The notes beneath the pieces were generated by a model that saw only the letters and a list, made by a program, of their open reading frames with translations, did no database searches and was not told where the DNA came from. A stretch of DNA of 52,764 nt. It comes from a virus (lineage: Duplodnaviria; Caudoviricetes). Location of the stretch: positions 1-52,764 of IMG/VR virus record IMGVR_UViG_3300032288_004603. One strand, 5' to 3'. A program made the position numbers and the translations under genes. Of this stretch, positions 3,651 through 31,810 are shown one piece after another. How positions within the stretch are numbered: the first letter of the stretch is position 1; every line of letters begins with the position of its first letter.

Positions 3651-3712
3651 TAGGTTGGAGTCTACTCTCCTATCACCTTTGGGGTGCCAGCCCGTATGGT
3701 TGAATAACCTAC
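3651..3712 (-). ncRNA. dispersed structured sRNA, copy 1
   Basis: Minus-strand TACCTTTG promoter, then GGGCUGGCACCCCAAAGGUGAUAGGAGAGUAGACUCCAACCUA. Confidence 0.75.
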
Positions 3713-3816
3713 ACTACAAAGGTAAGAATAATATTTTTAATATCCTAGTAAAATAAATTTTTTTTTCTAATTTTTTTTTCTTACCTTTGTATTGTCTAAT
3801 TATTAAAACATATATT

Positions 3817-4047
3817 ATGAAAGATTTATTTGAAACACCCGAATTAATTCCCGACAATGTTCAAGCGGTATTGGAAACCTTTAATGAGGATTGTGATAAT
3901 ACCTATCACGAATTGGATAGGATATTGAGTGAGATTGAACCTTTGGGTTATACCTTTGATTATTATTTGGACGCAGAGCCTTATGGGTTAAGACCAATTG
4001 AAATGGAGTTGGTTGAATTGGAAGGTTGGGAACATATTAATGATTAA
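3817..4047 (+). CDS. acidic hypothetical protein (cassette gene)
   Basis: ATG after promoter-leader repeat; track TTG start lies inside the promoter. Confidence 0.8.
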   Translation: MKDLFETPELIPDNVQAVLETFNEDCDNTYHELDRILSEIEPLGYTFDYYLDAEPYGLRPIEMELVELEGWEHIND

Positions 4048-4050
4048 AAT

Positions 4051-4110
4051 ATTTGGATAATTAAAATATTATTCTTATCTTTGTATTGTCTAATTATTAA
4101 AACATTTATT
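4051..4110 (+). promoter_or_regulatory. representative Bacteroidota-type promoter and leader
   Basis: atttggataattaaaatattattcttatctttgtattgtctaattattaaaacatttatt before ATG. Confidence 0.85.
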
Positions 4111-5217
4111 ATGAGAAAGCAATTTAATGAATTGGTTGAAACATTGAAGCGTTGGGATTTGTACCAAAAGGACGATGAGGTTGATACGGCATTGACTAAT
4201 TTGGAAAATAAAATTGATGAGGTTGAGAAACGCATTGAGTGTGCGGTGCGAAGTTCAGCAGAAGCTAACAAGTCAATTTTACTTTATACTGAAAGGGTTG
4301 ATAACAATGAAACATTTCAAATGAACGTTGATGACCATGATTCAATTTTGAGAGGTACAAACGATGTGCTAATTGCGTTGAACATGAACGATACTGAATG
4401 TATTGATTTCAATTGGTATTGGTTATTTCAACCAAAGGAAGAACCTAAACCAATTGCAGTAGGAAATATAGAATACGATTTTCCCGAAGAAGTTTATACA
4501 ATTGGCAATGCTGATAATACTGATATAGTTGGTGATGTATATGAGAGTGATTTTATTAAACTTTGTGAATTAGGTTTAATATGGTGTGAGAGTGATAAAT
4601 TATTTCCAATTGGTGGGGGCAACAAAACAAACTATGTTGTTCGAAACAATGAGTTTATTCCAATTGTGAAATTAAAACAAATTGATTTGAGCAAAGTACC
4701 AATTAAGAATGAAGTATTTATGACTTTTGAAAGCAGTTGGGGTGAGATTGATTGTGACCGAGAGGGCAACGTGATTGAGATTAGAGGTGATGAGTATATC
4801 AATGGTGAAAGGAATTATATGTTTGACATTGATAAATTTGATTTGGTTGAGTATGGTAAGTTTTGTGAAAGCAAAAATATTACCATGGGTGAAGCTGATG
4901 ATATTTTGGTAGTAGGATTTTGGAATAAAGATTATACATATAGTGAAGCTGATATGGTTTGGAGAAAAAATATGTTTGATGATAATGATGATGATGATGA
5001 AATAGGTGCGCCGACACAATTATGCATTGACTATACTAAACATCAAATAGTAAATAATATTATTTCTCAATTGAAAGATATTGAAGTTGACGGTGAAACC
5101 ATGGAATACATATTGAAACAAGTTGGCATGGGAGACCAAGTATTGAAGCAGTTATTTGCCCAAACGACAAATGATGAAATTGATTATTTGCATGATGTGA
5201 GAAACGGAAAGGGTTAA
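4111..5217 (+). CDS. acidic hypothetical protein
   Basis: 368 aa ORF from ATG after the repeat. Confidence 0.85.
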   Translation: MRKQFNELVETLKRWDLYQKDDEVDTALTNLENKIDEVEKRIECAVRSSAEANKSILLYTERVDNNETFQMNVDDHDSILRGTNDVLIALNMNDTECIDFNWYWLFQPKEEPKPIAVGNIEYDFPEEVYTIGNADNTDIVGDVYESDFIKLCELGLIWCESDKLFPIGGGNKTNYVVRNNEFIPIVKLKQIDLSKVPIKNEVFMTFESSWGEIDCDREGNVIEIRGDEYINGERNYMFDIDKFDLVEYGKFCESKNITMGEADDILVVGFWNKDYTYSEADMVWRKNMFDDNDDDDEIGAPTQLCIDYTKHQIVNNIISQLKDIEVDGETMEYILKQVGMGDQVLKQLFAQTTNDEIDYLHDVRNGKG

Positions 5218-5321
5218 ATACTATACTATATAAAATAATTTAAAAAAAAGTGAGATTTTATTTGGAAGTCTCACTTTTATTTTTTACCTTTGTATTGTCT
5301 AATAATTAAAACATTAAAGTT

Positions 5322-6089
5322 ATGTATTCAAAACCGTTATTATCTAGCAACAATGCTAAAACTGTAAAAGGAGAAAAAAAGAATTTCAAAACGTTTATTC
5401 TTTATATGTCACCTTTCACACAAAATTCTAAAGGGGTTAACCTTTGCCCTATGGCAAGTGAGGGGTGCGCAAGTGCTTGTTTATTTGAGAGTGGGTTTGG
5501 TGGAATTTACACTACTGTAAAACAAGGTCGTATTGAAAAGACTGAATTTTATCTTTCAAATAGAATAGCATTTTTGGATAAGTTGGTAGCTGAAATTTCC
5601 AAGTTAGAAAAGAAGTTTAAAGATAGCGAATTTACTTTAGCTATTCGTTTGAATGGTACAACTGATATTTCCTATGAGAAACAAATTACTAGTAATGGTA
5701 AAACAATTTTCGATACGTTTCCTAATGTACAATTTTACGATTACACAAAGAACTATACACGTTTCAAAAAAGTGTTACCTAGCAATTATCATTTAACATT
5801 TTCACGTTCCGAAATTAACAATGATATTGCAATAGATTTGTTAAGCAAAGGACACAATGTTGCTATGGTATTTGATAAGTTACCCGAAACTTATTTAGGT
5901 TACAAAGTGATTAATGGTGACGAAACTGATTTACGTTTCTTAGATGATAACAATGTAATTGTTGGTTTGAAGTACAAAAAAGTAACTGGCAAGGGTGGTG
6001 CTGAAAAAAACAAAGAAGCTATGTTGGACGGGTTTGTAATTGTAACACAAGCCAAGGTAGATAAAAAGAAGTTAAGTAAGGTTGCTTAA
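5322..6089 (+). CDS. Gp88-like protein (Cys-cluster, radical-SAM-like fold)
   Basis: CPMASEGCASACL, RLNGTTDI, FYDYTK and NYHLTFS motifs typical of the phage GP88 family. Confidence 0.75.
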   Translation: MYSKPLLSSNNAKTVKGEKKNFKTFILYMSPFTQNSKGVNLCPMASEGCASACLFESGFGGIYTTVKQGRIEKTEFYLSNRIAFLDKLVAEISKLEKKFKDSEFTLAIRLNGTTDISYEKQITSNGKTIFDTFPNVQFYDYTKNYTRFKKVLPSNYHLTFSRSEINNDIAIDLLSKGHNVAMVFDKLPETYLGYKVINGDETDLRFLDDNNVIVGLKYKKVTGKGGAEKNKEAMLDGFVIVTQAKVDKKKLSKVA

Positions 6090-6173
6090 TTAGACAAAAA
6101 AAGTGGCATTATAATTTGGTAGTGTCACTTTTTTTCTTTATCTTTGTATTGTCTAATTATTAAAACATAAAAC

Positions 6174-6407
6174 ATGAAAGCTTTAAATTTTTTATTGCGT
6201 TCTGAAATCACAGATGTAGATATATTAAATAATATTTGTGATGATACCAAGGCGCTTTTAATTGATGAGGATAATTGTTGGATTGAAATTTCTGACAATG
6301 GGTTCTTTGTCCCTGATGGTTGGAGTGGTACTAGAACCAACGATATTGTCGAAGCAAAAACGGCTTTGATTAAATTTAAAATTGATAACGAAATTTCTTT
6401 ATTTTAA
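6174..6407 (+). CDS. hypothetical protein (cassette gene)
   Basis: ATG after repeat. Confidence 0.8.
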   Translation: MKALNFLLRSEITDVDILNNICDDTKALLIDEDNCWIEISDNGFFVPDGWSGTRTNDIVEAKTALIKFKIDNEISLF

Positions 6408-6467
6408 TTTGGAAATATAGAATAATATTATTATCTTTGTATTGTCTAATAATTAAAACATAATCTT

Positions 6468-8228: not shown

Positions 8229-8264
8229 TTTGGTTAATTAAAAAATAATTTGTATCTTTGTATT

Positions 8265-8390
8265 GTCTAATTAATAAGCAACTTACACGACAAAAAAGAT
8301 TAAGGGTGGCAAGCTTATGTTTTAAATTAGACACCAAGAGGGCAACACATAAATTCTACAAAAGACCACCCGTTGTGTTGCCCTTTTATT
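8265..8390 (+). ncRNA. putative anti-leader small RNA
   Basis: Promoter repeat followed by no ORF; contains gttttaaattagaca (reverse complement of leader tgtctaatttaaaac) and AGGGCAACAC/GTGTTGCCCT stem + T run. Confidence 0.5.
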
Positions 8391-9540: not shown

Positions 9541-10395
9541 ATGCCAAATCACATTACAAACCGATTAACAATTATCGGAACAGAAGAACAAGTAAAACAA
9601 GTTCGTGAAGCAATTAAAGGGGAACGTGAAGACCAATTTATTGACTTCAATAAGATTGCACCCATACCAAAAGAATTGGAGGGTACACAAAGTCCATTAC
9701 GAATTATTTCCCAAGAGGAATATGATGAGCAAGAACGAAGAATTCGTGAGAATGATTTAACCGATAATGAGAAAAATTGGGGATTGTCAAGGGGTTTAAC
9801 AAGGGAACTTGCTGATGAATATATCGAGAAATTCGGACACGCTGAATGGTATGGTTGGCAAACTTCAAATTGGGGTACAAAGTGGAATGCTTATGACCAA
9901 ACTGAACTTGATGAAAATTGCATTGAATTTCAAACTGCGTGGGCAACACCATTTGAGGTATTGGTTAATTTGAGTAGAATGTTTCCCGAAGTAACTTTTG
10001 AAGTGAAATATGCTGATGAGGATTTTGGTTACAATGTTGGGGAGTACACATTAGAGGGTGGTGATGAAATAGACACCAATATACCTGACGGGGGAAGTGT
10101 TGAGGCATTGGAAATGGCTATGGAGATTCAATATGGTACACCCGATGAGTATTTTGATTGCAACCAAGAAATTTTTGGTGAATACATTGATGATGATGAG
10201 GAAGAATTGAGTGATTATGAATTGACAATGATTGATATTGCTTACAAGCATGGAGTACACCCCGAAGAGGATTGTGGCTACCACAGACTTGTATTGGCAA
10301 GATTTAAAGAACTTGCATTGGAAGATGAGAACTTTGAACTTGTTATTGTAATTGACAAGGAATTGAGCAAGGTTGAAAGTGAGGGAGAAGAATAA
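9541..10395 (+). CDS. Api92/YubB-like (DUF1281) ferredoxin-fold protein
   Basis: MPNH..N.L.I.G start, WYGWQTSNWGTKWNA and FQTAWATP motifs. Confidence 0.75.
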   Translation: MPNHITNRLTIIGTEEQVKQVREAIKGEREDQFIDFNKIAPIPKELEGTQSPLRIISQEEYDEQERRIRENDLTDNEKNWGLSRGLTRELADEYIEKFGHAEWYGWQTSNWGTKWNAYDQTELDENCIEFQTAWATPFEVLVNLSRMFPEVTFEVKYADEDFGYNVGEYTLEGGDEIDTNIPDGGSVEALEMAMEIQYGTPDEYFDCNQEIFGEYIDDDEEELSDYELTMIDIAYKHGVHPEEDCGYHRLVLARFKELALEDENFELVIVIDKELSKVESEGEE

Positions 10396-12318: not shown

Positions 12319-12321
12319 TAT

Positions 12322-12630: not shown

Positions 12631-12705
12631 CAAAGGTACAAATAATATTTTAAATAAAAAAGCATATTTCATTTGGATTTATGCTTTTTTCTTTTTATCT
12701 TTGTA

Positions 12706-12769
12706 CCATGGTTATGCATCCATGGGCTGATAGTCACCGACTAGCGGAAGAGTAGACTCCATGCTGCAC
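12706..12769 (+). ncRNA. dispersed structured sRNA, copy 2
   Basis: TATCTTTG promoter, CCAUGG hairpin, GGGCUGAUAGUCACCGACUAGCGGAAGAGUAGACUCC. Confidence 0.75.
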
Positions 12770-12947
12770 TAATATTTCATATAAAAATTTAACAAAAAAA
12801 ATTTGGATATGTCATTTTTATTTTGTATACGTGCGTGCGCTATTATAAAGGTATGAAAAAAAAATAAAAAAAATATCGTTTTATATTTGTTTATATAAAA
12901 TAATATTCTTACCTTTGTACTGTTAATCAATTAAAACAATTTAAATT

Positions 12948-13867: not shown

Positions 13868-13963
13868 CCATTTTGTTAATAACTTTTTGATTAAAAATTT
13901 GCAAGGGTCGATTATTTTTTGTACCTTTGCAAATTTTTTTTATATGGGTAAAAAAAAATATAA

Positions 13964-14019
13964 GGTAGGTTGGAGTCTACTCTACTACCACCTTGTGAGT
14001 GTCAGCCCGTCCATCGACA
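13964..14019 (-). ncRNA. dispersed structured sRNA, copy 3
   Basis: Minus-strand TACCTTTG promoter, GGGCUGACACUCACAAGGUGGUAGUAGAGUAGACUCCAACCUACC. Confidence 0.75.
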
Positions 14020-14160
14020 TAACAAAGGTAAGAATAATTTTTGACACCACCAAATTTTTTTAATATTATTTTATATTTTTTTTCAATGTAGACAATTGTC
14101 CGTTGTGGGAGTTAAATTATGTCCTTATCTTTGTGGTATAACTTTAAAAAACAAATAGAT

Positions 14161-22265: not shown

Positions 22266-22463
22266 ATGGATAAATTAATAAATAAAAATATAGGATTGCA
22301 AAACTCTGGGATTAATGAGGATGAAGCTTGGTTAAGTATGTTAAAGAAAGCTCAAACCAAATTATTCAATGCTTATAAGAGAAAAGATACTGAAGCAATC
22401 GATAATAATCAAAAGGAAGTTGATTTCATTCAAAAGCAACTTATTAGGTTGTCACAAAGATAA
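22266..22463 (+). CDS. hypothetical protein
   Basis: No cassette promoter; preceded by GATATTTACT, a variant of the ATATTTAT motif. Confidence 0.65.
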   Translation: MDKLINKNIGLQNSGINEDEAWLSMLKKAQTKLFNAYKRKDTEAIDNNQKEVDFIQKQLIRLSQR

Positions 22464-22541
22464 TAATATTATTTTATATTTCCAAATGTTTTTTGATTAT
22501 TTTGTTTACAGTAGGTTGTTTACTGTAAATTAAACTTTATT

Positions 22542-22602
22542 GTAGGTTGGAGTCTACTCTTCTGTTCCTCTCGGCTCAGCCCATTGTCGTTTTATTGACA
22601 AT
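22542..22602 (-). ncRNA. dispersed structured sRNA, copy 4
   Basis: Minus-strand TATCTTTG, AUUGUC/GACAAU hairpin, GGGCUGAGCCGAGAGGAACAGAAGAGUAGACUCCAACCUAC. Confidence 0.75.
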
Positions 22603-22732
22603 ACAAAGATAAGGATAATAAATAATATATCCAAATTATTTAACAAAAAAAATAAATAAAAAAATATTGTTTTATATTTGGTAGTTTAAAAAATAATCCT
22701 TACCTTTGTAAGGTCAATTTAAAACAATAACA

Positions 22733-23278
22733 ATGGGAACAATTAAAGATGTAATTAACCTAGTTGAAACTTTACTAGCAAAGGAATTTACAATTAGTAC
22801 TTATTATGGTGAGCATAAAATTAGTGCTAAAGAAATTGGTTATCGTTTTGAGTTTAATAACAAGAAAAAAGCGTTTGGTACTTGTTATTATGGTCAAAAG
22901 AAAATATCTTTATCATTACCTTTATGTAGTGAGAATTTGGATAAGATTTATCCTAATATACAAAACACTATTTTACACGAAATTGCACACGCTTTTTCAG
23001 TCCACGTTTACGGAATTAGATTTGGTAGTGGACATGGGGATAATTGGAAATCTATTGCAAGACAAATTGGTTGTAATGGGGAAAGATGTTTCAATAGTAA
23101 TGAGGTAAATTTACCAAAAAGCAAATATAAATTGGTTTGCGATACTTGTGGATATGAAACGCCAAAATACAAATTAACAAGTAGGATAAACGACTTTGCT
23201 TGTGGTAGATGTTGTAAACAACATAACAACGGAAAATTTAGTGAAAAATATAAACTAAGATTATTGCAAAATTATTAA
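22733..23278 (+). CDS. SprT-like zinc metalloprotease
   Basis: TILHEIAH, GHGDNWK, C-terminal CDTC/CGRC zinc ribbon. Confidence 0.85.
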   Translation: MGTIKDVINLVETLLAKEFTISTYYGEHKISAKEIGYRFEFNNKKKAFGTCYYGQKKISLSLPLCSENLDKIYPNIQNTILHEIAHAFSVHVYGIRFGSGHGDNWKSIARQIGCNGERCFNSNEVNLPKSKYKLVCDTCGYETPKYKLTSRINDFACGRCCKQHNNGKFSEKYKLRLLQNY

Positions 23279-23344
23279 AAAAGATTTGGATAATTGAAAA
23301 ATTATCCTTATCTTTGTATTGTATAATTATTAAAACATAAACAA

Positions 23345-23557
23345 ATGGAAAAGATACCAACAGCAGAAGAGTTTATTGAAACGCACAATAGATTGAATGA
23401 TTCCTCAACAGAATTATTAATGATTGAATTTGCTAAACTTCACGTAAAAGCTACGTGTGAAGCTATTGCTAACGAGTATTATCCAAAGGATAAGGAAAAC
23501 TTTGAGATAGTTGCTGCAAGATTTATCAATGCTTATCCACTAAAAAACATTAAATAA
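23345..23557 (+). CDS. conserved small phage protein
   Basis: IPTAEE...MIEFAKLHV...NAYPLKNIK pattern. Confidence 0.8.
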   Translation: MEKIPTAEEFIETHNRLNDSSTELLMIEFAKLHVKATCEAIANEYYPKDKENFEIVAARFINAYPLKNIK

Positions 23558-23615
23558 ATTTGGAATTGTCAAAATAAATTCTTATCTTTGTATTGTCAAT
23601 TTAAAACAAGTAATT

Positions 23616-23813
23616 ATGAATGCAAAGGTAGAACAAATTTTAAGAAAGTCAGCTTACGATTTCGCAATCATGTGTGGTGCATCTGAAGCTGAAGCATTAG
23701 TCGAAGCAGACAATAAGATTAAGAGTGTAAATAAGGTCACTGAACAAGAGAAAAAACAAAAGTGGGTAGATATTACCACTGGAAAAAAACACACACCTAA
23801 AACCCCTTATTAA
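23616..23813 (+). CDS. hypothetical protein (cassette gene)
   Basis: ATG after repeat; terminator AAACCCC/GGGGTTT at its end. Confidence 0.75.
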   Translation: MNAKVEQILRKSAYDFAIMCGASEAEALVEADNKIKSVNKVTEQEKKQKWVDITTGKKHTPKTPY

Positions 23814-23847
23814 GGGGTTTTTTATATTTGAATAAACTTAAGTATAA

Positions 23848-23906
23848 GGTAGGTCGGAGTCTACTCTCCTGTTCCTTTCGGCTCAGCCCTTATCGTTCAT
23901 TGACAT
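23848..23906 (-). ncRNA. dispersed structured sRNA, copy 5
   Basis: Minus-strand TACCTTTG, GGGCUGAGCCGAAAGGAACAGGAGAGUAGACUCCGACCUACC. Confidence 0.75.
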
Positions 23907-24038
23907 AACAAAGGTAAGTATAATTTTTTAATCTACCAAATTATTTCACAACTTTTTTTAAAAATTATTTTCATTAAAAATTTGGAAATATCAAATAATA
24001 TATTTATCTTTGTATTAACAATTTAAAACAACAAAACA

Positions 24039-24323
24039 ATGAGTGCAATTTATGTATCCCCGATTGGGTTAAGCGTTTTTGATGACAAAAAAGAATTTGG
24101 TTATTTTACCATTACAGGAAACGCAAAAAGAAGTGAAACGATTGTTGAATTTGATTCAGCATACGACTTTGAAGAATTTATTCAAGAAAAAGTTAATTGC
24201 AAGGATATTCAATTCGATAGCGAGTTTTGTCAATTCTTTGCTTATGCAAAAACAAGGGCAACTGCTATGAGGTTTGTTACTGCTATTGAAAAACATTTTG
24301 ACAAAGTGAAAAAAATGTTGTAA
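24039..24323 (+). CDS. hypothetical protein (cassette gene)
   Basis: ATG after repeat. Confidence 0.8.
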   Translation: MSAIYVSPIGLSVFDDKKEFGYFTITGNAKRSETIVEFDSAYDFEEFIQEKVNCKDIQFDSEFCQFFAYAKTRATAMRFVTAIEKHFDKVKKML

Positions 24324-24382
24324 AACATTTGGAAATATCAAATAATATATTTATCTTTGTATTGTTCAATTAAAAACACATT

Positions 24383-24646
24383 ATGAAAAAAGTAAAAAAT
24401 AAGCACACAGTTTTGAAAGGTGAGGGTGCAAATCAACACACAATTTATGGCAATTTCAAAGTTGAAAGTGAAACTGCTGATTTTTCAGTAATTTCAGTAA
24501 AGGAAGATGCCGAGCTACGACACGAAGAACCCAATGGGGAATTTGCCGAGCATAACACATTGAAAGTTGATAAGGGAGTTTGGATTATGGGCAAACAAGT
24601 TGAGTATAACCCATTCAAAAGAACGATTAGTCAAGTTTGGGATTAA
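24383..24646 (+). CDS. conserved His-containing protein, typical DUF6745 partner
   Basis: LKGEGANQH...LRHEE...EH.TL...G.W...QVEY.P...V.D pattern. Confidence 0.7.
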   Translation: MKKVKNKHTVLKGEGANQHTIYGNFKVESETADFSVISVKEDAELRHEEPNGEFAEHNTLKVDKGVWIMGKQVEYNPFKRTISQVWD

Positions 24647-24720
24647 CTTTTTTTGAAAAAAATTTGGTTATATCATTTTTTATTCTTATCTTTGTAAGGT
24701 CAATTTAAAACAACAAAACA

Positions 24721-25125
24721 ATGGCTAATCCTTTAATTCATTCAAAATCCAGCGTTAAGCGTTGGGGTGGTAAAGTAGAAGATTATATTGCAATCCACGA
24801 ACTTATTGATAGTCCAAAGGCTACAATGAACAATAATTCATCAAGAGCATTAACCCACAATACTTGGTTTGCTTATACGATTATACCTAAAATTTTTGGT
24901 TACAATATAGTAAATTCAGACGGAAGAAGTGTTGATACCGTTGATATTGCTATGTTGCATATTGCCGAAGATTTCCGTATGAAATTCGTTCCGACACCAC
25001 AAGACTATTTAAAGCACATGGTTGTTCAACCTTGGTTTAACAATGGAGTGAAAGATATTGAGAACCCCGAAGCAACAAAGGTTGCAGAAGAATTTTTAGA
25101 AAAACTAAGAACTGAAAATAATTGA
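24721..25125 (+). CDS. DUF6915-like protein
   Basis: HSKSSVKRWGGKVEDYIAIH, RALTH and HIAED...PT..D.L motifs. Confidence 0.7.
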   Translation: MANPLIHSKSSVKRWGGKVEDYIAIHELIDSPKATMNNNSSRALTHNTWFAYTIIPKIFGYNIVNSDGRSVDTVDIAMLHIAEDFRMKFVPTPQDYLKHMVVQPWFNNGVKDIENPEATKVAEEFLEKLRTENN

Positions 25126-25189
25126 TAAATAATTTGGTCAATTAAAAAATTATACTTATATTTGTATTGTTAATTTAAAAAAAAAGAAA

Positions 25190-25831
25190 ATGATAACACA
25201 AGAAGAAGCAATTAAACTTTGGAAAGAACTTGGGGTTGAAAGTTGCACAATGGATTTTTATTGTGGTGGGGATAGTATGGGCGATACCTCATTTGTTTTG
25301 CTTGGTAGTGAGGGAATGATTGATTGTGATGAATTGTTAGACTTTTTTGAAGATGAAGTTTACAAGCACGTTGATTTTTATGTAAATTCAGACGGACACT
25401 ATCAAGGGGAAAGTGGGAATGTTGAAATTGTCTTGGAAGATTATGACGGTGAAGAAGAATTTAGTTACTCAAAGTCAGCAACAAGTGAGTGGAGTGAAAC
25501 TATTGACAATACATTGGAAGTTAAACTAACAGACGAAATGGTTAGTTTTATTGTGAACAATGTTTTAAACATTCGTGGTGGTTATGACGATAAACCTATT
25601 GTGAATTTCAAACAAGATTTCATAATGTCAGATGAAGAAGAAAAAATACTAAATGATATTAGTAACTTAATTGATAAAACTTGCGAAGATTTTGTGCCTG
25701 AAACTGATGATGAATTGGAAGAATGGTATAACTACACCACAAACGAAAGAGGGGAAGAAATTATCATTAAGGATAACAAGCTACAAATACAAATTTCAAA
25801 TAGTGTAATAGTTTTTACTGAAAGTGATTAA
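25190..25831 (+). CDS. DUF6878-like acidic protein
   Basis: F.CGGDS.G motif; adjacent to DUF6915-like gene. Confidence 0.55.
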   Translation: MITQEEAIKLWKELGVESCTMDFYCGGDSMGDTSFVLLGSEGMIDCDELLDFFEDEVYKHVDFYVNSDGHYQGESGNVEIVLEDYDGEEEFSYSKSATSEWSETIDNTLEVKLTDEMVSFIVNNVLNIRGGYDDKPIVNFKQDFIMSDEEEKILNDISNLIDKTCEDFVPETDDELEEWYNYTTNERGEEIIIKDNKLQIQISNSVIVFTESD

Positions 25832-25905
25832 AACTTTTGTATAAATTATTTGGAAATGTTATTTTATATTCTTATCTTTGTATTGTCTAATTAAAACAAC
25901 AAAAA

Positions 25906-26580
25906 ATGAAAGTAGTTATTGAGAATGTTATTTTTGATAAAGAAGTTGGTAGCAGACTTTTGAAGTTGAAACACGAAACTTGCCCTTATCCACAATTAGA
26001 GAATGAATGGGATAGTATTGTTCCTTTGTCATTCAAAGATATTGCCAAAATGAAAAACTTGGAAGAAAGGCGAATTGGTATTGTTTGTCTTGGGTTGGAT
26101 AGACTTATTAAGGAAGTAAACCCAAAACTTATTTCAAGTAAAACATTGAAGAAAAAAGCTAACTATATTGATAAAGACGGAAACCACATTAAAAAAACTT
26201 ACGAAGATACTTACGAACTTTACGAAGTGAGTGGGGAACAATTTAGTGAGGGGTTGGATAGTTGGCGAACTGCAAGTAATTCACACTATGTAAAATGTAA
26301 GGACACCTCAACGGATAGAGAATATCTTATTTGGGTTGATATTAGAGAAGTAAGTAGAACAAATGGGGGTAGTGGTTGGAGTGTTGAGGCAAAAGACGTA
26401 AACCCTATTCAATGTATTGCTTGGACTATTCAAACAAATGTTAAAGAGGGTAACATTGAAAAGATTATTCGACAAGGGGATTGTGTTTTGGTTAAACCGA
26501 TTAACCCTAATGATTTGTTGGATAACCCACGACACCTAACCGAAAAAGAATATAAAAAATTGCTTGTTGCAGAAAGTTAA
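25906..26580 (+). CDS. DUF6745-like protein with C-terminal RQGD motif
   Basis: NLEERR, YVKCKDTSTDREYLIWV, IAWT and IIRQGD motifs. Confidence 0.65.
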   Translation: MKVVIENVIFDKEVGSRLLKLKHETCPYPQLENEWDSIVPLSFKDIAKMKNLEERRIGIVCLGLDRLIKEVNPKLISSKTLKKKANYIDKDGNHIKKTYEDTYELYEVSGEQFSEGLDSWRTASNSHYVKCKDTSTDREYLIWVDIREVSRTNGGSGWSVEAKDVNPIQCIAWTIQTNVKEGNIEKIIRQGDCVLVKPINPNDLLDNPRHLTEKEYKKLLVAES

Positions 26581-26679
26581 ATTGTTGTTGTTTTAAGTTG
26601 ATGAAAAAAAGTGGCACTATTATTTGGTAGTGTCATTTTTTTTTCTTATCTTTGTATTAACAATTTAAAACAATAAACA

Positions 26680-26920
26680 ATGAGAAAAATTTCAACATTC
26701 GTATTTCTTTTTATCATTTCATTAATAGGTTTTGGGAATGAGTAATTGGAATCCAAATAGTGCAAAGCACAAGGCACAACATTGTGGTTACAAGGGTAAA
26801 CCAACAAAACAAAGTGTAAACGCTTTATTGAGCCTTTATTCAGCTTGTGTGGTAGTTAAGGAAACACCAAACCCAGTTTCAAAAAAAGAAATTGGCAAAC
26901 AATTAAAATTTGATTTTTAA
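26680..26920 (+). pseudogene. frameshifted secreted/membrane protein gene
   Basis: Signal-like 21 aa ORF (26680-26745) and downstream ORF in +1 frame; removing one T in ggttttggga fuses them. Confidence 0.5.
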
Positions 26921-26997
26921 CAAAAAAATATCGTTTTTTATTTGGTAGTTTCAAAAATAATCCTTATCTTTGTATTGTCTAATTAAAACAACAACTT

Positions 26998-27318
26998 ATG
27001 TCAGCAACAAATTTCCCAAAAGATGAAGTTACTTTCTTCGCAACAGATTTAACTATTAATGAAATGGTTAAACATTACACTTTCCAAGAACTTATGGCTA
27101 TGTTCCTATTCGGAAAGAATACAATTGAAAAGTTAGATTATATTGTTAAAAATAATCTTTTTGATGAATGCGAAGTACACCCTTTGGAAGTCCTTAAAGA
27201 TAAACTATACTTTCAGACAAAAACATTCATTGTGCAATTAGCACTTGAAAAAATGAATACTTGTGAAATAGTATTAATTGAATCAATGTGTAATGTAGCA
27301 ACATTATTTAAAAACTAA
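26998..27318 (+). CDS. hypothetical protein (cassette gene)
   Basis: ATG after repeat. Confidence 0.8.
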   Translation: MSATNFPKDEVTFFATDLTINEMVKHYTFQELMAMFLFGKNTIEKLDYIVKNNLFDECEVHPLEVLKDKLYFQTKTFIVQLALEKMNTCEIVLIESMCNVATLFKN

Positions 27319-27323
27319 TTAAG

Positions 27324-27470
27324 ATGAACGAGGAAGTTTCAGCACTATATTTAGATGAACAAGGTTGTTTATCTATTGACTACGGAACAACACCAATGTT
27401 TGTTGAGGGATTTGGGGAATGTGTATTCGGAGATTATATTGTTTACACCCAGAAAAAAAATCAAAAATAA
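27324..27470 (+). CDS. small hypothetical protein (48 aa)
   Basis: Read manually; fills gap before next promoter. Confidence 0.6.
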   Translation: MNEEVSALYLDEQGCLSIDYGTTPMFVEGFGECVFGDYIVYTQKKNQK

Positions 27471-27527
27471 TTAGGAAATATCGTTTTATATTATTATCTT
27501 TGTAGTGTCACTTTAAAACAATAAGAA

Positions 27528-27815
27528 ATGAAAGCAGAAATTAAAATTACAAGCAGTTACGGATTTGACCGCAATTGGACGTTGGTTGTATCAACGGCAA
27601 AAAAAACAAAGTCTTTCTATTTAGGACAAGACGTTAAGTTTTGCAGTAGAGTATTGGGTATGGAGCCTTCATACATTGTTCAACAAATTGGAACGTCAAC
27701 AATTGGGGAAGGAACAAGAGGTAACAAAAGACTTGCTAAATTCATTTGTAACGAACTTGGATTGAACGGAAGAAACATTGATAAGATTGAGCCTTGGGGG
27801 TTGTGTTGCCAATAG
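27528..27815 (+). CDS. hypothetical protein (cassette gene)
   Basis: ATG after repeat; FYLGQDVKFCSRVLG motif. Confidence 0.8.
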   Translation: MKAEIKITSSYGFDRNWTLVVSTAKKTKSFYLGQDVKFCSRVLGMEPSYIVQQIGTSTIGEGTRGNKRLAKFICNELGLNGRNIDKIEPWGLCCQ

Positions 27816-27826
27816 CACACAGCCTT

Positions 27827-27844
27827 GTACACAATTGTGTATAT
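27827..27844 (+). repeat. oriented palindrome GTACAC-N4-GTGTATAT, copy 6
   Basis: gtacacaattgtgtatat. Confidence 0.8.
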
Positions 27845-27856
27845 GCGCATACAAGA

Positions 27857-27878
27857 AAGGGGACAATTTAGTCCCCTT
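27857..27878. terminator. hairpin between convergent genes
   Basis: AAGGGGAC-AATTTA-GTCCCCTT. Confidence 0.65.
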
Positions 27879-27901
27879 AATTATTTAATCTTATTTTATT
27901 T

Positions 27902-28111
27902 TTAATTACTTAAACATTCGGATTGTTGGAAGTGTAATCTTGCAACTTGTAAGAAAACATAGTCAGGAAGTTTCATCATCGAATCTTTAATCTCATCGTC
28001 AAACCAAAATGATAATTCACCAGTTTTTTCGTTGTATAGGTTATTTAAACCTTTAGCCATTAGGTTGCCCTCATTAAGTTGAACATCACCCACTTTTCTT
28101 AATACATTCAT
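27902..28111 (-). CDS. hypothetical protein (inverted cassette)
   Basis: Full promoter-leader repeat on minus strand at about 28120-28170. Confidence 0.8.
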   Translation of the reverse strand: MNVLRKVGDVQLNEGNLMAKGLNNLYNEKTGELSFWFDDEIKDSMMKLPDYVFLQVARLHFQQSECLSN

Positions 28112-28221
28112 ATTGTTTTGTTTTAAATAGACAATACAAAGATAATAATATAAAATGATATAACCAAATTTTTTATCGTTTATTTTAACGATATTTTTAA
28201 TTATCGTCTAATTTAACGATA

Positions 28222-28280
28222 GTGCGTGTTGGAGTCTACTCTCTCGTTCCTCTCGGCTCGACCCTTACCTTATTGGTACA
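28222..28280 (-). ncRNA. dispersed structured sRNA, copy 6
   Basis: GGGUCGAGCCGAGAGGAACGAGAGAGUAGACUCCAAC; compensatory UCG/CGA stem. Confidence 0.75.
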
Positions 28281-28413
28281 CTACAAAGATAAGAATAATA
28301 ATTGACACCACCAAATTATTTGACAAAAAAAATAAATAAAAAATTATCCTATTTTATTTGGAGAATTGAAAAAGATTCCTTATCTTTGTATTGTCAATTT
28401 AAAACAACGAATT

Positions 28414-28686
28414 ATGAAAATGGAACAATTCTTAAAAGAAATCAAAGGAACTCAATTTGAAGCTGACTTTGCAAAGTCAGCTGAGTTGAATGTTAATGGT
28501 GCGCCAACTAGCAAAGCATATTGGAACTTAATCCTTTCAATCAGAGATTGCAAGTTATATTCAAAAGGTATCAAACCACACAGATTTTGGAAAATAAGCG
28601 ATGTTAAAGCGTATTTTGGTGTTAAAGGTAATGCACAAGGTATTGCAGAAAAATTAGAGCAATACAAAGCAGTTTTGGTGGCTTAA
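28414..28686 (+). CDS. hypothetical protein (cassette gene)
   Basis: ATG after repeat. Confidence 0.8.
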   Translation: MKMEQFLKEIKGTQFEADFAKSAELNVNGAPTSKAYWNLILSIRDCKLYSKGIKPHRFWKISDVKAYFGVKGNAQGIAEKLEQYKAVLVA

Positions 28687-28748
28687 AAAAAATCAAAAAT
28701 AATTGCAAAAAGATTTGGAGAATTGAAAAATTCTCCTTATCTTTGTTA

Positions 28749-28801
28749 TAACAAAAAGGGGCTGACACGAGAGTGGTAGTAGAGTAGACTCCGACCTACC
28801 C
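28749..28801 (+). ncRNA. dispersed structured sRNA, copy 7
   Basis: TATCTTTG promoter, GGGCUGACACGAGAGUGGUAGUAGAGUAGACUCCGACCUACC. Confidence 0.75.
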
Positions 28802-28903
28802 TAAAAAAACATATTATAAATTAATTTAAAAAATTATCCTATTTTATTTGGATAATTGAAAAAGATTCCTTACCTTTGTAGAGTCAATTTAAAACAATAA
28901 GAT

Positions 28904-29119
28904 ATGTCAGTAAATGCTAGTTTAGAAATCGCTAATGAGTTAATGAACAACAAAACAGTATTAACCAAAGAAGAGCGTGATGTGTGCGTACAATTTATGC
29001 CTGAAATGGCTAAAGAATACTTATTTCATAATTCTTGGAATAACACTTGGTTAAACCTTAATGTGTATTCTGAGATTGAAAAAGAAGAATCCGATTTACG
29101 TAAAGAAATAGGTTTTTAA
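28904..29119 (+). CDS. hypothetical protein (cassette gene)
   Basis: ATG after repeat. Confidence 0.75.
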   Translation: MSVNASLEIANELMNNKTVLTKEERDVCVQFMPEMAKEYLFHNSWNNTWLNLNVYSEIEKEESDLRKEIGF

Positions 29120-29154
29120 TAAACCTATTTTTATATACCAAAAAAAAATATAAA

Positions 29155-29212
29155 GTGGGTCGGAGTCTACTCTTCTGTTCCTCTCGGCTCAGCCCCTTGT
29201 CATCCATTGACT
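29155..29212 (-). ncRNA. dispersed structured sRNA, copy 8
   Basis: GGGCUGAGCCGAGAGGAACAGAAGAGUAGACUCCGACCCAC after minus-strand promoter. Confidence 0.75.
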
Positions 29213-29344
29213 ATACAAAGATAAGAATAATAATTGAAACTACCAAATTTTTTAACAAAAAAATAAATAAAAAAATTATCCTATTTTATTTGGATAATTG
29301 AAAAAGATTCCTTACCTTTGTAGTGTCAATTTAAACAACAAACA

Positions 29345-29815
29345 ATGAAAAATTTATTATTTCGCTTATTCATCTTAATTTCAATAGGGTTAATTATCTT
29401 TTTTGCTATTTCAACTAAAACAAATAAGGTATCAAAAGAAATTGTAAATATAACAAATGAAGTTGATACAACAACTGAAACTTTTGAAGAAACTGAAACC
29501 AATGATGAAATAGTTGAAACGAAGAAAGAAAAAGAATTTAATAATTTTTTAGTTAAAGGTCAAATCAATACTTATTCAAATGGTGTTGATACCTATGTTG
29601 TTGAATTAGATACTTTGGATAGAATTGTAATTACACAACCAAATAATTTAACTAATGGTCATTTTTGGGATAAAAATAATTGCGTATTTAAAAATGATTA
29701 CATTTATGTTGATTGGGTAACTTATGTTGATTGGGTAACTACTGAATACTATATTAAAAATACTGAATTAATCATTGTTAAAAATGGTAAATCCACAAAA
29801 TATAAATTAATTTAA
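29345..29815 (+). CDS. membrane-anchored protein
   Basis: N-terminal hydrophobic helix; internal 18-nt tandem duplication (YVDWVT x2, 29705-29740). Confidence 0.8.
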   Translation: MKNLLFRLFILISIGLIIFFAISTKTNKVSKEIVNITNEVDTTTETFEETETNDEIVETKKEKEFNNFLVKGQINTYSNGVDTYVVELDTLDRIVITQPNNLTNGHFWDKNNCVFKNDYIYVDWVTYVDWVTTEYYIKNTELIIVKNGKSTKYKLI

Positions 29816-29892
29816 AAAAATATAGTTTTATATTTGGTTATATCAAAAATAATCCTTATCTTTGTATTGTCTAATTATTAAAACATAAAACA

Positions 29893-30006
29893 ATGGTAGT
29901 ATTCTTAACACTTTTGGCACTGGCTTTTTATTGGGTGCATAAACACGAAGAAAAAGAGGATGATAATTTAAGCGATGAAGCTTGGAATGAAAAATATAAC
30001 CGATAA
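29893..30006 (+). CDS. small membrane peptide (37 aa)
   Basis: Read manually; ATG after repeat. Confidence 0.65.
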   Translation: MVVFLTLLALAFYWVHKHEEKEDDNLSDEAWNEKYNR

Positions 30007-30074
30007 AATTTGGTTATATCAAAAATAATCCTTAACTTTGTATTCACTAATCACTTAAAACTAAAATTAAAAAA

Positions 30075-30461
30075 ATGGAAAATCTAAAAAAATCAAAATT
30101 ACTTAATGGTGTGTTATTCATCTTTTCGTTTCTTGTTTGCACACTAATAACATTCCCAATTGCACAAGAATTGGACGGCACTTTATCATTCATTATTTTA
30201 TTAATTATTGTCACAATTGGAATTATTGTTCTAACAAAAACACTTGAACAAAAATTGGATGAACACGTATTTTCAGAAATTGAAAGGCATAAATATAAAC
30301 ATATTAGTCAGTTCTTTGATACTATGGAAGATGATAAAGAATTTAGTAAGAATGTATTAAGAGAAACGATACCGATATATAACGATGATAGGGAGAAAAT
30401 CGGGGAACAAACTGTTTATAGTGCAATATCACAAAAGAAACAAAGATTTTTAAGATTATAG
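30075..30461 (+). CDS. two-TM membrane protein
   Basis: Two hydrophobic segments; ATG after repeat. Confidence 0.8.
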   Translation: MENLKKSKLLNGVLFIFSFLVCTLITFPIAQELDGTLSFIILLIIVTIGIIVLTKTLEQKLDEHVFSEIERHKYKHISQFFDTMEDDKEFSKNVLRETIPIYNDDREKIGEQTVYSAISQKKQRFLRL

Positions 30462-30559
30462 TTGTTGTTTTAAGTTGATGAAAAAAAGTGAGGTAATTAT
30501 TTGGTTATCTCATTTTTTTTATTTATCTTTGTATTGTCTAATTATTAAAACTTAAAATT

Positions 30560-30700
30560 ATGTTAGTATTAGTTTGTTCTTTAGTTTGGTCTGTTGGATT
30601 TGTTGTCAGCATGGTTGGTATGTATTTAGTTAAAGATTATCGAAATGGTATAATCTATAATGGTTTTGTTGGTAAAATACAAAACTTAATAAAACATTAA
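30560..30700 (+). CDS. small membrane peptide (46 aa)
   Basis: Read manually; ATG after repeat. Confidence 0.65.
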   Translation: MLVLVCSLVWSVGFVVSMVGMYLVKDYRNGIIYNGFVGKIQNLIKH

Positions 30701-30773
30701 AAAAAACCAAAATAAATTTGGTAGATTAAAAAATTATTCTTATCTTTGTAGTGTCTAATTAAAACAACTAAAA

Positions 30774-30890
30774 ATGAAAACAATTCAAATCACACAACAC
30801 GAACTTCAACAAACTATGAAACATAGCATACACAAATCAAAAAAAGATTATTCAAGAAAATCAAAACATAAAAATAAAGGGTGGGATTAA
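30774..30890 (+). CDS. small basic peptide (38 aa, ...KSKKDYSRKSKHK...)
   Basis: Read manually; ATG after repeat. Confidence 0.7.
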   Translation: MKTIQITQHELQQTMKHSIHKSKKDYSRKSKHKNKGWD

Positions 30891-30962
30891 TTTCCCGCTC
30901 AAAAATTTGGAAATGTCATTTTTATTTTGTATCTTTGTATTGTCAATTTAAAACAATATATT

Positions 30963-31154
30963 ATGAATGCTATTCAGGAATTAGAAACCAACTTTAAAAA
31001 ACAATTTAATAAAGTATTTAGAAAATTAAATTACATTATCTCATATAGTGAATGCGTTATATTACTAGACACATTGAAAGGTGTCAAATATAACCCAATT
31101 GAGAATGAATATGCTTATAGGTGGCAATTAAAATTCAACGAATTGTTAGCGTAA
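30963..31154 (+). CDS. hypothetical protein (cassette gene)
   Basis: ATG after repeat. Confidence 0.75.
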   Translation: MNAIQELETNFKKQFNKVFRKLNYIISYSECVILLDTLKGVKYNPIENEYAYRWQLKFNELLA

Positions 31155-31213
31155 AATTTGCATATATCAAAACTATTCATTATCTTTGTAAGGTCAATTT
31201 AAAACAATATACA

Positions 31214-31423
31214 ATGAGCAAAACATTAAACATTTCAGGAGTACAAGAAAGACTTATCGAATATCACCGCAAACCAACAGCCTACGAAATCAAATTTGGT
31301 TATGGTGCAACACATTATAAAACATTTGCTGAATCAGCTTGTACCGATAAAAATGGGCGTGTTAAAAAGCGTTTAAAATGTCCTATTGATGGACTAATCT
31401 ACACACAAAATTACACAAGTTAA
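31214..31423 (+). CDS. hypothetical protein (cassette gene)
   Basis: ATG after repeat; EIKFGYGATHY motif. Confidence 0.75.
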   Translation: MSKTLNISGVQERLIEYHRKPTAYEIKFGYGATHYKTFAESACTDKNGRVKKRLKCPIDGLIYTQNYTS

Positions 31424-31501
31424 TAAAAAAGTTACCAAAAAATTTGGTAGATTAAAAAATAATCCTTATCTTTGTATTGTCTAATTAAAACAACAGAAAA
31501 A

Positions 31502-31642
31502 ATGAGAAAAAATCTAGTAATTGAAGGTCTGCAAGTAGTAACATTGAAAACTTTACAAGTTGCATCAGTTTGCTTTGGTGCAATCGCTTTCGGTGGTATT
31601 GGTTATGCGTTTTATCGAATCATTACCGATAATATAGCATAA
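31502..31642 (+). CDS. small membrane peptide (46 aa)
   Basis: Read manually; ATG after repeat. Confidence 0.65.
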   Translation: MRKNLVIEGLQVVTLKTLQVASVCFGAIAFGGIGYAFYRIITDNIA

Positions 31643-31752
31643 CAAATAATTACATTATTTAATTGTAACCCCTATCAAAAGTAGGGGTATTTTTTTTTAA
31701 AAATAATTCATAATTTATTTGGTCAATTCAAAAATTATTCTTACCTTTACAA

Positions 31753-31810
31753 TATCAAACAAAGGGGCTGACACTTACAAGGTGGTAGTAGAGTAGACTC
31801 CAACCTACCT
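31753..31810 (+). ncRNA. dispersed structured sRNA, copy 9
   Basis: TACCTTTA promoter variant, GGGCUGACACUUACAAGGUGGUAGUAGAGUAGACUCCAACCUACC. Confidence 0.75.

What the first reader, a model, noticed from the sequence alone, without database searches (positions are those of the whole stretch)
3651..31810. Nine individually promoted copies of an unrecognised structured small RNA
Seen: nine intergenic elements (3651-, 12706+, 13964-, 22542-, 23848-, 28222-, 28749+, 29155-, 31753+) each start just after a Bacteroidota promoter and have no ORF. Shared layout: optional 5' hairpin (7 of 9) - GGG - variable hairpin - invariant AGAGUAGACUCC - usually RACCUAC. The variable hairpin keeps its pairing while its sequence changes: basal CUG/CAG, UCG/CGA, CUG/UAG, CUG/CGG; a purine-rich mismatch or internal loop; upper stems CC/GG, CAC/GUG, CACC/GGUG, UAGUC/GACUA. 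Five copies have GNRA loops (GAGA, GAAA). GNRA loops and G-U pairs work only on the promoter strand, which points to RNA. Inference: a multicopy, early-expressed phage ncRNA family, probably a decoy, sponge or antisense RNA whose dose is raised by duplication. I do not recognise it as a described family.
Basis: partly seen in the sequence, partly recalled or inferred. Interest (0 to 1): 0.92.

Follow-up and report, generated by a model that had tools for sequence, protein, structure and literature searches.

The report
Multicopy early small RNA of Bacteroidota phages
Nine separately promoted copies of a roughly 70-base structured RNA gene sit in the early region of a large Bacteroidota phage; the same undescribed RNA family occurs in many other such phages but not in their hosts, and what it does is still unknown.

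Summary
AGAGTAGACTCC occurs 9 times exactly (0.03 expected), at the stated places. Each copy follows a Bacteroidota-type -33/-7 promoter: 7 of 9 by a strict pattern, 2 of 9 relaxed.

It is a real, widespread RNA family. A covariance model found it in 70 records. These include the cultured lytic Tenacibaculum phage Larrie (4 copies) and a complete 288-kb phage whose 9 copies all lie at 8-36 kb. The variable hairpin covaries at 7 of 7 pairs. Its closing pair is C-G 59, U-A 45 and G-G 3 of 107 rows with letters at both positions. G-U outnumbers A-C 58 to 9, which fixes the strand.

The core layout is A-N-GGG, hairpin, one base, AGA, then a 4-bp hairpin whose 8-nt loop ACUCCRAC is nearly invariant.

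There is no Rfam match. None of 151 Bacteroidota genomes has a hit at E<=0.01. Four phage records hold no reverse transcriptase.

Function is not shown. My best guess, about 0.4, is an abundant early trans-acting RNA whose invariant loop and junction bind a conserved host factor as a decoy, for takeover or counter-defence. No RNA data exist.

The parts
3635..3751 (-). Copy 1: relaxed promoter 3717-3751, RNA about 3635-3712, motif 3657-3668
   Evidence: CM R1 hit 3645-3698, E 5.6e-8
12672..12780 (+). Copy 2: promoter 12672-12703, RNA about 12708-12780, motif 12749-12760; most divergent copy (tail AUGCUGC)
   Evidence: CM R1 hit E 0.0073
13950..14054 (-). Copy 3: promoter 14023-14054, RNA about 13950-14018, motif 13972-13983, U9 run
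   Evidence: CM R1 E 4.7e-8
22529..22635 (-). Copy 4: promoter 22604-22635, RNA about 22529-22599, motif 22549-22560
   Evidence: CM R1 E 1.1e-16 (in seed)
23836..23940 (-). Copy 5: promoter 23909-23940, RNA about 23836-23904, motif 23856-23867; G+C-rich terminator-like hairpin 23803-23816 further downstream
28211..28315 (-). Copy 6: promoter 28284-28315, RNA about 28211-28279, motif 28231-28242; tail of the ACACG class
28714..28812 (+). Copy 7: promoter 28714-28745, RNA about 28750-28812, motif 28781-28792; no 5' hairpin
   Evidence: CM R1 E 3.3e-13
29140..29247 (-). Copy 8: promoter 29216-29247, RNA about 29140-29211, motif 29162-29173, U9 run
31718..31821 (+). Copy 9: relaxed promoter 31718-31749 (-7 box ends TTTA), RNA about 31754-31821, motif 31790-31801; no 5' hairpin
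   Evidence: CM R1 E 3.3e-9

Best explanation
These are nine genes of one family of phage small RNAs. The estimated length is about 60-80 nt; the ends are not mapped.

Each is transcribed by the host RNA polymerase from the same Bacteroidota-type promoter class as the surrounding early genes.

The fold is:
- an optional 5' hairpin (P0);
- a conserved single strand A-N-GGG;
- a hairpin (P2) of free sequence but conserved pairing, often with an A-rich or GNRA loop;
- exactly one linker base, then AGA;
- a short hairpin (P3, GUAG paired with CURC) that presents the nearly invariant 8-nt loop ACUCCRAC;
- often a U run.

Inferred, not shown: the RNA acts in trans, early and in high amounts. Its invariant loop and junction, possibly folded together through GGG pairing with the loop's CC, would form the surface bound by a factor conserved across Bacteroidota hosts. 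The RNA would then work as a decoy or sponge for host takeover or counter-defence.

Sub-odds: real transcribed structured RNA family 0.85-0.9; acts in trans through the loop or junction 0.55; decoy for a host factor 0.3-0.4.
For: Repeat: the motif occurs 9 times against 0.03 expected.

Family size: CM R1 gave 177 hits at E<=1 in 920 kb of fetched loci. The best 150 were aligned, giving 115 distinct rows. After I dropped 12 loci by eye, these lie in 70 records: the window, 61 further IMG/VR contigs, 6 MAGs and 2 GenBank phages. 21 of the 70 hold 2 or more copies.

Structure:
- P2 has changes on both sides at 7 of 7 pairs; 0 of 500 shuffles reach the observed covariation score.
- The closing pair is C-G 59, U-A 45, G-G 3.
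- G-U/U-G 58 against A-C/C-A 9 fixes the strand.
- P3's inner four pairs are paired in 94, 93, 114 and 107 of 115 rows. Position 18 is only A or G (63/47 of 111) and position 19 is mostly C or U (106 of 111). The next positions use all four bases.
- 4 of 5 variants at motif position 4 fall in the 18-member ACACG tail class, where that base would not be paired.

Loop invariance without selecting on the motif:
- The scan of flank plus tail gave 8 real copies. All 8 keep ACUCC, and 6 of 8 have the full motif.
- The scan with positions 9-12 left free found no variant in 16 stretches.

Transcription signals in 116 unique copies:
- -7 box in 100, against 164 of 580 random sites.
- Full -33/-7 promoter in 70, against 50 of 580.
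- A run of 5 or more U within 30 nt in 52, against 67 of 580.

Early region: in a complete 287,855-bp phage with terminal repeats, all 9 hits lie at 8.4-35.6 kb. The window copies lie among about 54 genes that share one promoter-leader cassette.

Phage-only distribution:
- The exact 19-mer was found in 7 stretches from 185,579 species genomes, all MAG contigs.
- 0 of 151 Bacteroidota genomes have a hit at E<=0.01.

Independent genes: orientation against the local coding strand is opposite in 53, the same in 23, mixed in 24 and too few ORFs in 12, of 112 copies.

Neighbours are accessory early genes (DUF932, SprT-like, PcfJ-like, Api92-like).
Against: - No transcript data: no RNA run is listed for this DNA.
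- No partner was identified. No neighbouring protein family is shared by more than 13 of about 75 contigs.
- P3 and the GGG:CC contact have no true covariation, because one side is invariant.
- Seven copies have GUG in place of GGG with an unchanged loop.
- Three copies have GUAU with an unchanged CUGC partner.
- About 16% of copies (the ACACG tails) cannot form the same P3.
- Only 3 of 9 window copies, and 62 of 116 overall, have a nearby U run, so 3' ends and size are uncertain.
- The alignment behind the pair counts was fitted to the P2 structure.
- The decoy idea rests on invariance, copy number and location alone.
Confidence: 0.4

Rival explanations
1. A base-pairing (antisense) regulator. 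The exposed loop ACUCCRAC, or the whole invariant 12-mer, pairs with a conserved host or phage RNA and changes its translation, stability or processing.
For: The most conserved bases lie in a hairpin loop or single strand, which is typical of sRNA seeds. There is a 9-nt complement in the 16S rRNA of one Bacteroidota genome.
Against: The 16S/23S duplex energy is not better than for shuffled queries: -21.5 against a mean of -19.0, with a best shuffle of -25.0. A 9-mer match is expected about 0.2 times by chance. The phage's own leaders have no GGAG-type site (0 of 54). No target was found.
Confidence: 0.15
2. A cis-acting transcription module. A strong promoter plus a short structured transcript plus a terminator is placed mostly against the flow of the genes. 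It would block or collide with read-through, insulate early units, or make R-loop primers.
For: Orientation is opposite to the local coding strand in 53 copies against 23 the same, of 112. Three of four Larrie copies oppose a genome that is almost entirely on one strand. P3 followed by a U run looks like an intrinsic terminator in about half the copies.
Against: An insulator would not need an invariant 8-nt loop, a conserved A-N-GGG or a covarying P2 across unrelated phages. 23 copies are co-oriented with the genes. About half the copies lack a nearby U run.
Confidence: 0.12
3. A small ligand-binding aptamer (for example a sponge for a nucleotide signal) or a new self-cleaving ribozyme.
For: The core is about 45-50 nt, with invariant purine-rich junctions, a possible pseudoknot, and A-rich or GNRA loops on the variable hairpin. 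High copy number suits stoichiometric capture. The same phage carries NAD salvage genes.
Against: No match to any Rfam riboswitch or ribozyme, even at E<=10. No ligand or cleavage site can be inferred. Most copies have no same-strand downstream gene to regulate.
Confidence: 0.08
4. A mimic of a host RNA that feeds a defence system: a CRISPR repeat (RNA anti-CRISPR), a type III antitoxin, or a template for a reverse transcriptase.
For: Known phage RNAs of these kinds are short, structured and sometimes multicopy. UG27 RNA arrays occur in Bacteroidota phages (section read).
Against: Hosts hold nothing similar: 7 MAG stretches out of 185,579 species genomes, and 0 of 151 genomes at E<=0.01. The copies are dispersed and singly promoted, not tandem. 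RVT_1 is absent from 4 of 4 records searched, two of them complete genomes.
Confidence: 0.05
5. A DNA-level repeat (a protein-binding site, recombination site or small mobile element) that is not functional as RNA.
For: It is an exact 12-mer repeat on both strands of an AT-rich genome.
Against: The strand-specific G-U excess is 58 to 9. There is a fixed position downstream of promoters. Compensatory changes occur in P2. No terminal inverted repeats were seen around copies (reading).
Confidence: 0.03

Closest known systems
UG27 reverse-transcriptase-associated ncRNA arrays of phages (bioRxiv 10.64898/2026.09.22.753630; section 9 and passages read)
   Same: Multicopy phage ncRNA units, found mainly in phages of Bacteroidota and Bacillota. 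The units are diverse in sequence but share a fold with short conserved motifs and a pseudoknot.
   Different: UG27 units are 135-167 nt, lie in tandem next to an RT and two accessory genes, and template cDNA. Here the core is about 45-50 nt, the copies are dispersed with one promoter each, and no RVT_1 is present in 4 of 4 records.
RNA anti-CRISPRs (solitary repeat units; recalled, no paper read here)
   Same: Short promoter-driven phage RNAs proposed to act as decoys in early or anti-defence regions.
   Different: Those copy the host's CRISPR repeat. Nothing like this RNA is present in host genomes, and the hairpin sequence varies freely within one phage.
Phage tRNA gene clusters and tRNA-like RNAs
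   Same: Small structured RNAs, multicopy, in the same early region (three tRNAs at 17.5-19.3 kb). The order GG-containing strand, 13-24-nt hairpin, 4-nt linker, hairpin with a U-C-C-R-A loop segment recalls the D-loop, anticodon arm, variable loop and T-arm. This is my reading; the T-loop consensus is recalled.
   Different: There is no acceptor stem. The loop is 8 nt rather than 7, with C in place of U at its second position. It is not detected by ARAGORN or by the Rfam tRNA model.
Type III antitoxin RNAs (ToxI-like; recalled)
   Same: Units of about 35-45 nt, pseudoknotted and protein-binding. Phages can carry mimics of them.
   Different: Those are tandem repeats next to a toxin gene and are cut by it. 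Here the copies are dispersed and no host counterpart was found.
Catalogue of 8,495 candidate structured RNAs from IMG/VR (PMC10690425; abstract and passages read)
   Same: It uses the same sequence collection and the same kind of evidence (covariation). This family may be one of its unnamed entries.
   Different: The passages read do not mention Bacteroidota, promoters or multicopy families. The supplements that list the candidates are closed, so I could not check.

Membership tests
Any Rfam 15 family | Covariance-model match at or near the gathering score | tested here: not met
   The whole window at gathering score gave only 3 tRNAs. E<=10 over 22400-32000 (6 copies) and E<=5 over 7 other loci gave no hit at any copy.
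tRNA / tRNA-like | Cloverleaf with acceptor stem; detection by ARAGORN or RF00005 | tested here: not met
   ARAGORN found only the 3 true tRNAs. There is no RF00005 hit at the copies. The 5' end to tail pairing is not better than in mismatched controls: -9.48 against -9.57 kcal/mol, p 0.50.
tRNA / tRNA-like | T-loop-type pentad (U-N-N-R-A) contacted by a GG strand | tested here: inconclusive
   The loop segment U-C-C-R-A is kept: position 13 is R in 109 of 111 and position 14 is A in 105 of 111. GGG is kept in more than 90%. Neither side varies, so no covariation is possible, and 7 GUG variants are not compensated.
RNA anti-CRISPR (repeat mimic) | Sequence likeness to a CRISPR repeat of the host group | tested here: not met
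   The 19-mer scan of 185,579 species genomes gave 7 stretches, all single MAG contigs. 0 of 151 Bacteroidota genomes have a hit at E<=0.01. CRISPR arrays were not inspected one by one.
Type III antitoxin RNA | Tandem repeats beside a toxin endoribonuclease gene | tested here: not met
   Copies lie 0.4-9 kb apart, each with its own promoter. There is no tandem array.
UG27 / retron-type RT template RNA | Adjacent reverse transcriptase; unit of 135-167 nt in an array | tested here: not met
   RVT_1 was found in 0 of 4 records: the window, the complete 288-kb phage G162, Larrie and LR745206. A fifth record, L031, was not held and so was not searched.
put/nut-type antitermination RNA | Lies in cis, co-oriented, between a promoter and the operon it serves | tested here: not met
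   53 copies oppose the local coding strand against 23 co-oriented, of 112. Downstream genes have promoters of their own.
Plain intrinsic terminator | G+C-rich hairpin directly followed by a U run; sequence otherwise free | tested here: inconclusive
   P3 plus a U run (4 or more) occurs in 62 of 116 copies. The loop and the 5' strand are invariant, which a terminator does not require.

The most novel reading that the evidence does not exclude
This would be an RNA-only effector family of Bacteroidota phages: a compact fold in which A-N-GGG docks on the invariant ACUCCRAC loop (a tRNA-elbow-like contact), made in large amounts in the first minutes of infection. It would titrate a factor conserved across the phylum, such as a defence nuclease or an RNA-processing or translation component. 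That would make it the first widespread phage RNA decoy that is not a copy of a host CRISPR repeat or antitoxin.
Probability: 0.2. Interest if true: 0.9.

Novelty: new variant of a known kind. Interest (0 to 1): 0.72.

Why it matters
Early regions of phages are where host takeover and counter-defence functions sit, and almost all known ones are proteins. This is an RNA gene family with the following properties:
- It has an invariant 8-nt loop.
- It is present in at least 70 records, from a 77-kb siphovirus to 288-kb and 635-kb phages.
- It reaches up to nine separately promoted copies per genome.
- It is absent from the hosts.

That pattern points to a conserved host target for which nothing is known in Bacteroidota, a phylum without Hfq or ProQ (recalled).

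One carrier, Tenacibaculum phage Larrie, is cultured, strictly lytic and has a described host (PMC10013915, passages read). The question can therefore be tested at the bench now.

The family should also be added to RNA family databases, so that these intergenic stretches stop being read as empty or as spurious ORFs.

Tried and rejected
1. Pairing of the 5' flank with the tail (a closing helix or 'acceptor'). Duplex energies of matched flank and tail pairs were no better than mismatched ones: -9.48 against -9.57, Wilcoxon p 0.50, 95 copies. Mutual information between flank and tail columns was at most 0.24. Some copies (5' GUAGGU with ACCUAC) could pair, but this is not general.

2. A search for compensated changes in P3 or in CUCC by three motif-relaxed scans.
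- With GUAG and CUAC left free, there were 6 new loci. Three are chance hits and 3 carry GUAU with an unchanged partner.
- With positions 9-12 left free, there were 0 new loci.
- With flank plus tail only, there were 2 new variants.
No double change was found.

3. rRNA as a target: not better than shuffles.

4. Shine-Dalgarno mimicry: 0 of 54 phage leaders carry GGAG, GAGG or AGGA.

5. A protein partner among neighbours. All-against-all BLAST of 2,133 ORFs showed no family in more than 13 contigs. The only family shared with Larrie in several loci is SprT-like.

6. Expression: no RNA holder is listed among 15 runs. Read laying was not used, because only DNA contigs were on offer.

7. Megablast of 12 kb against GenBank phages gave no match.

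8. K-turn, loop-E, hammerhead, Cas12a-handle and Cas13b-repeat likenesses were considered from memory and dropped. The bases concerned are not conserved across the family, or the likeness was 6 nt or less. None of these was tested with a tool.

10. Rows dropped by eye as chance hits before counts: L014, L023, L027, L037, L038, L042, L043, L056, L067, L068, L073, L076, L077, L086. These have no promoter and no GGG-hairpin. L014/L067/L076 and L086 still scored E 4e-4 to 1e-3 with the model and may be degenerate copies.

Full report
**Observation.** The window is a whole IMG/VR virus record of 52,764 bases that CheckV rates 16% complete, so it is a piece of a very large phage. Shuffles give 0.03, and no copy has one or two mismatches. 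Reading the copies side by side confirms the layout:
- GGG, a hairpin, one base, the 12-mer and a tail.
- GAGA or GAAA loops in 5 of 9.
- RACCUAC exact in 5 of 9.
- A 5' hairpin in 7 of 9, one of them weak.

A strict Bacteroidota promoter pattern (TTTG, 17-23 bases, TAnnTTTG; the consensus is recalled) matches 65 times on the + strand and 9 times on the - strand. Seven of the nine copies sit just downstream of such a match. The other two have near-matches.

**A family, not a local repeat.** A scan of IMG/VR for the motif plus four tail positions gave 90 stretches. By eye, 14 of these loci are chance hits with no promoter or hairpin; I dropped them, as listed under Tried and rejected. The rest show the same layout with quite different hairpin sequences.

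I built a covariance model from ten gap-free copies. It found 177 matches at E<=1 in 920 kb of fetched DNA. The 150 best, 115 of them distinct, lie in 70 records: the window, 61 further IMG/VR contigs, 6 MAGs and 2 GenBank phages. 21 of these records hold two or more copies. These are lower bounds, since only flanks were searched.

The GenBank carriers are:
- Tenacibaculum phage Larrie, with one exact and three AGGG-variant copies.
- A 634,780-bp uncultured phage, with one copy.

Larrie is a cultured, strictly lytic 77.5-kb siphovirus (PMC10013915, passages read). In a complete 287,855-bp phage with terminal repeats, the model finds nine copies, all between 8.4 and 35.6 kb. That matches the 3.6-31.8 kb spread in the window.

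**Structure: what is well supported.**
- *P2, the variable hairpin.* All seven modelled pairs change on both sides. 0 of 500 column shuffles reach the observed covariation score, and sliding the partners drops pairing from 85% to 35-51%. The closing pair is C-G 59, U-A 45 and G-G 3 of the 107 rows that have letters at both positions. The caveat is that this alignment was fitted to that hairpin.
- *Strand.* G-U/U-G pairs number 58 against 9 A-C/C-A. The hairpin therefore works on the promoter strand.
- *Spacing and flank.* Exactly one base separates P2 from the motif. The 5' flank is A-N-GGG, with A in 106 of 111 copies.

**Structure: what is weaker.**
- *P3.* G4-U5-A6-G7 of the motif can pair with tail positions 16-19, leaving the loop A8-C15 (ACUCCRAC). 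The four pairs hold in 94, 93, 114 and 107 of 115 rows. The partners vary only in pairing-compatible ways: A or G opposite U, mostly C or U opposite G. The next tail positions use all four bases.
- *Motif position 4.* Four of five variants at this position occur in the 18-member ACACG tail class, where that base would be unpaired.
- *Limits.* The motif side never varies in step with its partner. Three copies carry GUAU with an unchanged partner. The ACACG class needs a different 3' fold.
- *GGG with loop CC.* A contact between GGG and the loop's U-C-C is possible (93% of cells) but rests on invariant bases only, and seven GUG variants are not compensated.
- *Invariance.* Scans that did not select on the motif show that ACUCC is the part that never changes.

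**Transcription signals.** Of 116 unique copies:
- 100 have a -7 box within 110 nt upstream; random sites give 164 of 580.
- 70 have the full -33/-7 promoter; random sites give 50 of 580.
- 52 have five or more U within 30 nt downstream; random sites give 67 of 580. The run starts a median of 13 nt after the motif.

In the window only 3 of 9 copies have such a run. Two others have G+C-rich terminator-like hairpins 40-95 nt further on. The 3' ends are therefore open.

The window's early genes share one promoter-leader cassette, and the RNA genes begin with the same first transcribed bases. No sequencing run on record as RNA holds this DNA, so expression is inferred only.

**Where it is not.**
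- No Rfam 15 family matches, at gathering score or at permissive E-values over 13 loci in all.
- The exact 19-mer is in 7 stretches of 185,579 species genomes. All are MAG contigs, and the model hits are confined to one or two contigs per MAG.
- None of 151 Bacteroidota genomes has a hit at E<=0.01. 22 have weak hits between 0.03 and 1, as chance would give.
- RVT_1 is absent from 4 of 4 records searched.
- The motif as a word is in 0 papers of the library.
- Four further searches listed no description of the family.
- A catalogue of 8,495 IMG/VR candidates may contain it unnamed, but its supplements are closed (PMC10690425).

**Context.** The copies oppose the local coding strand in 53 cases and follow it in 23. 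24 are mixed and 12 have too few ORFs, of 112 in all. No neighbouring protein family recurs in more than 13 contigs. The recurrent neighbours are accessory early proteins such as DUF932, SprT-like, GP88, Api92-like and PcfJ-like.

**Mechanism.**
- *Shown:* a phage-only, multicopy family with a covarying hairpin, strand polarity and promoter association.
- *Inferred:* it is an early, abundant, trans-acting RNA. Its conserved single-stranded and loop bases, which are the same in phages as different as a 77-kb siphovirus and 288-kb and 635-kb phages, are read by something conserved in Bacteroidota hosts.

A decoy or sponge role best fits the invariance, the dosage and the location, but no partner is known. 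I put the whole chain at about 0.4.

The order of the parts (GG strand, hairpin of 13-24 nt, 4-nt linker, hairpin with a U-C-C-R-A loop segment) recalls the tRNA core. That makes a tRNA-elbow mimic the most concrete version of the idea. It fails the tRNA tests I could run, so it stays a lead.

The rivals are ranked in their own section: antisense seed, cis-acting promoter-terminator module, aptamer or ribozyme, mimic of a host defence RNA, and DNA repeat.

**Verdict.** The interpretation as an undescribed phage ncRNA family is supported, and the proposed function is open. It is not a member of any family I could test.

Noticed in passing
window 868-31887, + strand: The strict Bacteroidota promoter pattern matches 65 times on the + strand, about 60 of them at 868-31887. 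In 54 cases an ORF of 40 aa or more follows, mostly after a near-identical leader of 20-30 nt (TATTGTCTAATT..AAAACA type). Almost every small early gene has its own copy of one promoter-leader cassette.
   Followed up: partly
window 14869-14888, 15403-15422, 16136-16155, 28717-28736: Several promoter spacers are perfect 8-bp palindromes with a 4-nt centre, lying between the -33 and -7 boxes. They may be an operator or a hairpin. The terminator scan picked them up by accident.
   Followed up: no
window 17614-17627, 18534-18547, 18750-18763, + strand: GTTCTTTGAATWAT occurs three times (0.26 expected), just after tRNA-Met and just after two promoters in the tRNA region. It resembles the boxA element of rRNA antitermination; that likeness is recalled, not tested.
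   Followed up: partly
window 8261-8390, 18529-18700, 18732-18900, + strand: Strict promoters are followed by 130 nt or more without an ORF and without the motif. The first stretch ends in a G+C-rich hairpin with a U run. These may be further small RNA genes of other families.
   Followed up: no
window 35065-36603 (-) and 37350-38249 (-): Nicotinamide phosphoribosyltransferase (E 6e-191) and ribose-phosphate pyrophosphokinase (E 3e-65) by PHROGs. This is an NAD salvage pair, a kind of gene set that phages use against NAD-depleting defences (recalled).
   Followed up: no
window 48658-51177 (-): An 839-aa ATP-dependent protease (PHROG 4871, E 8e-255), which is unusual cargo for a phage.
   Followed up: no
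window 9541-10395, 12948-13838, 22733-23278, 39387-40547: Api92-like, DUF932, SprT-like and PcfJ-like domains. This set is typical of the first-entering regions of conjugative elements (recalled). The SprT-like gene also recurs near the RNA in 9 loci and in phage Larrie.
   Followed up: partly
L106 (ON950054.1 16963-17029): In phage Larrie two copies face each other. Their motifs are only 43 nt apart, so read-through transcripts would be complementary at their 3' ends.
   Followed up: no
window 3669-3712 (-); L106 2940-2990: In some copies the 5' hairpin looks like a worn copy of the 3' hairpin (GUAG..., loop...CCAUAC). Its 5' arm could instead pair with the tail, which hints at internal duplication or alternative folds.
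   Followed up: partly
L121 (16S rRNA of genome G009), about position 1298: There is a 9-nt perfect complement to AGACUCCAA of the motif in a conserved 16S hairpin. It is not significant against shuffles.
   Followed up: yes
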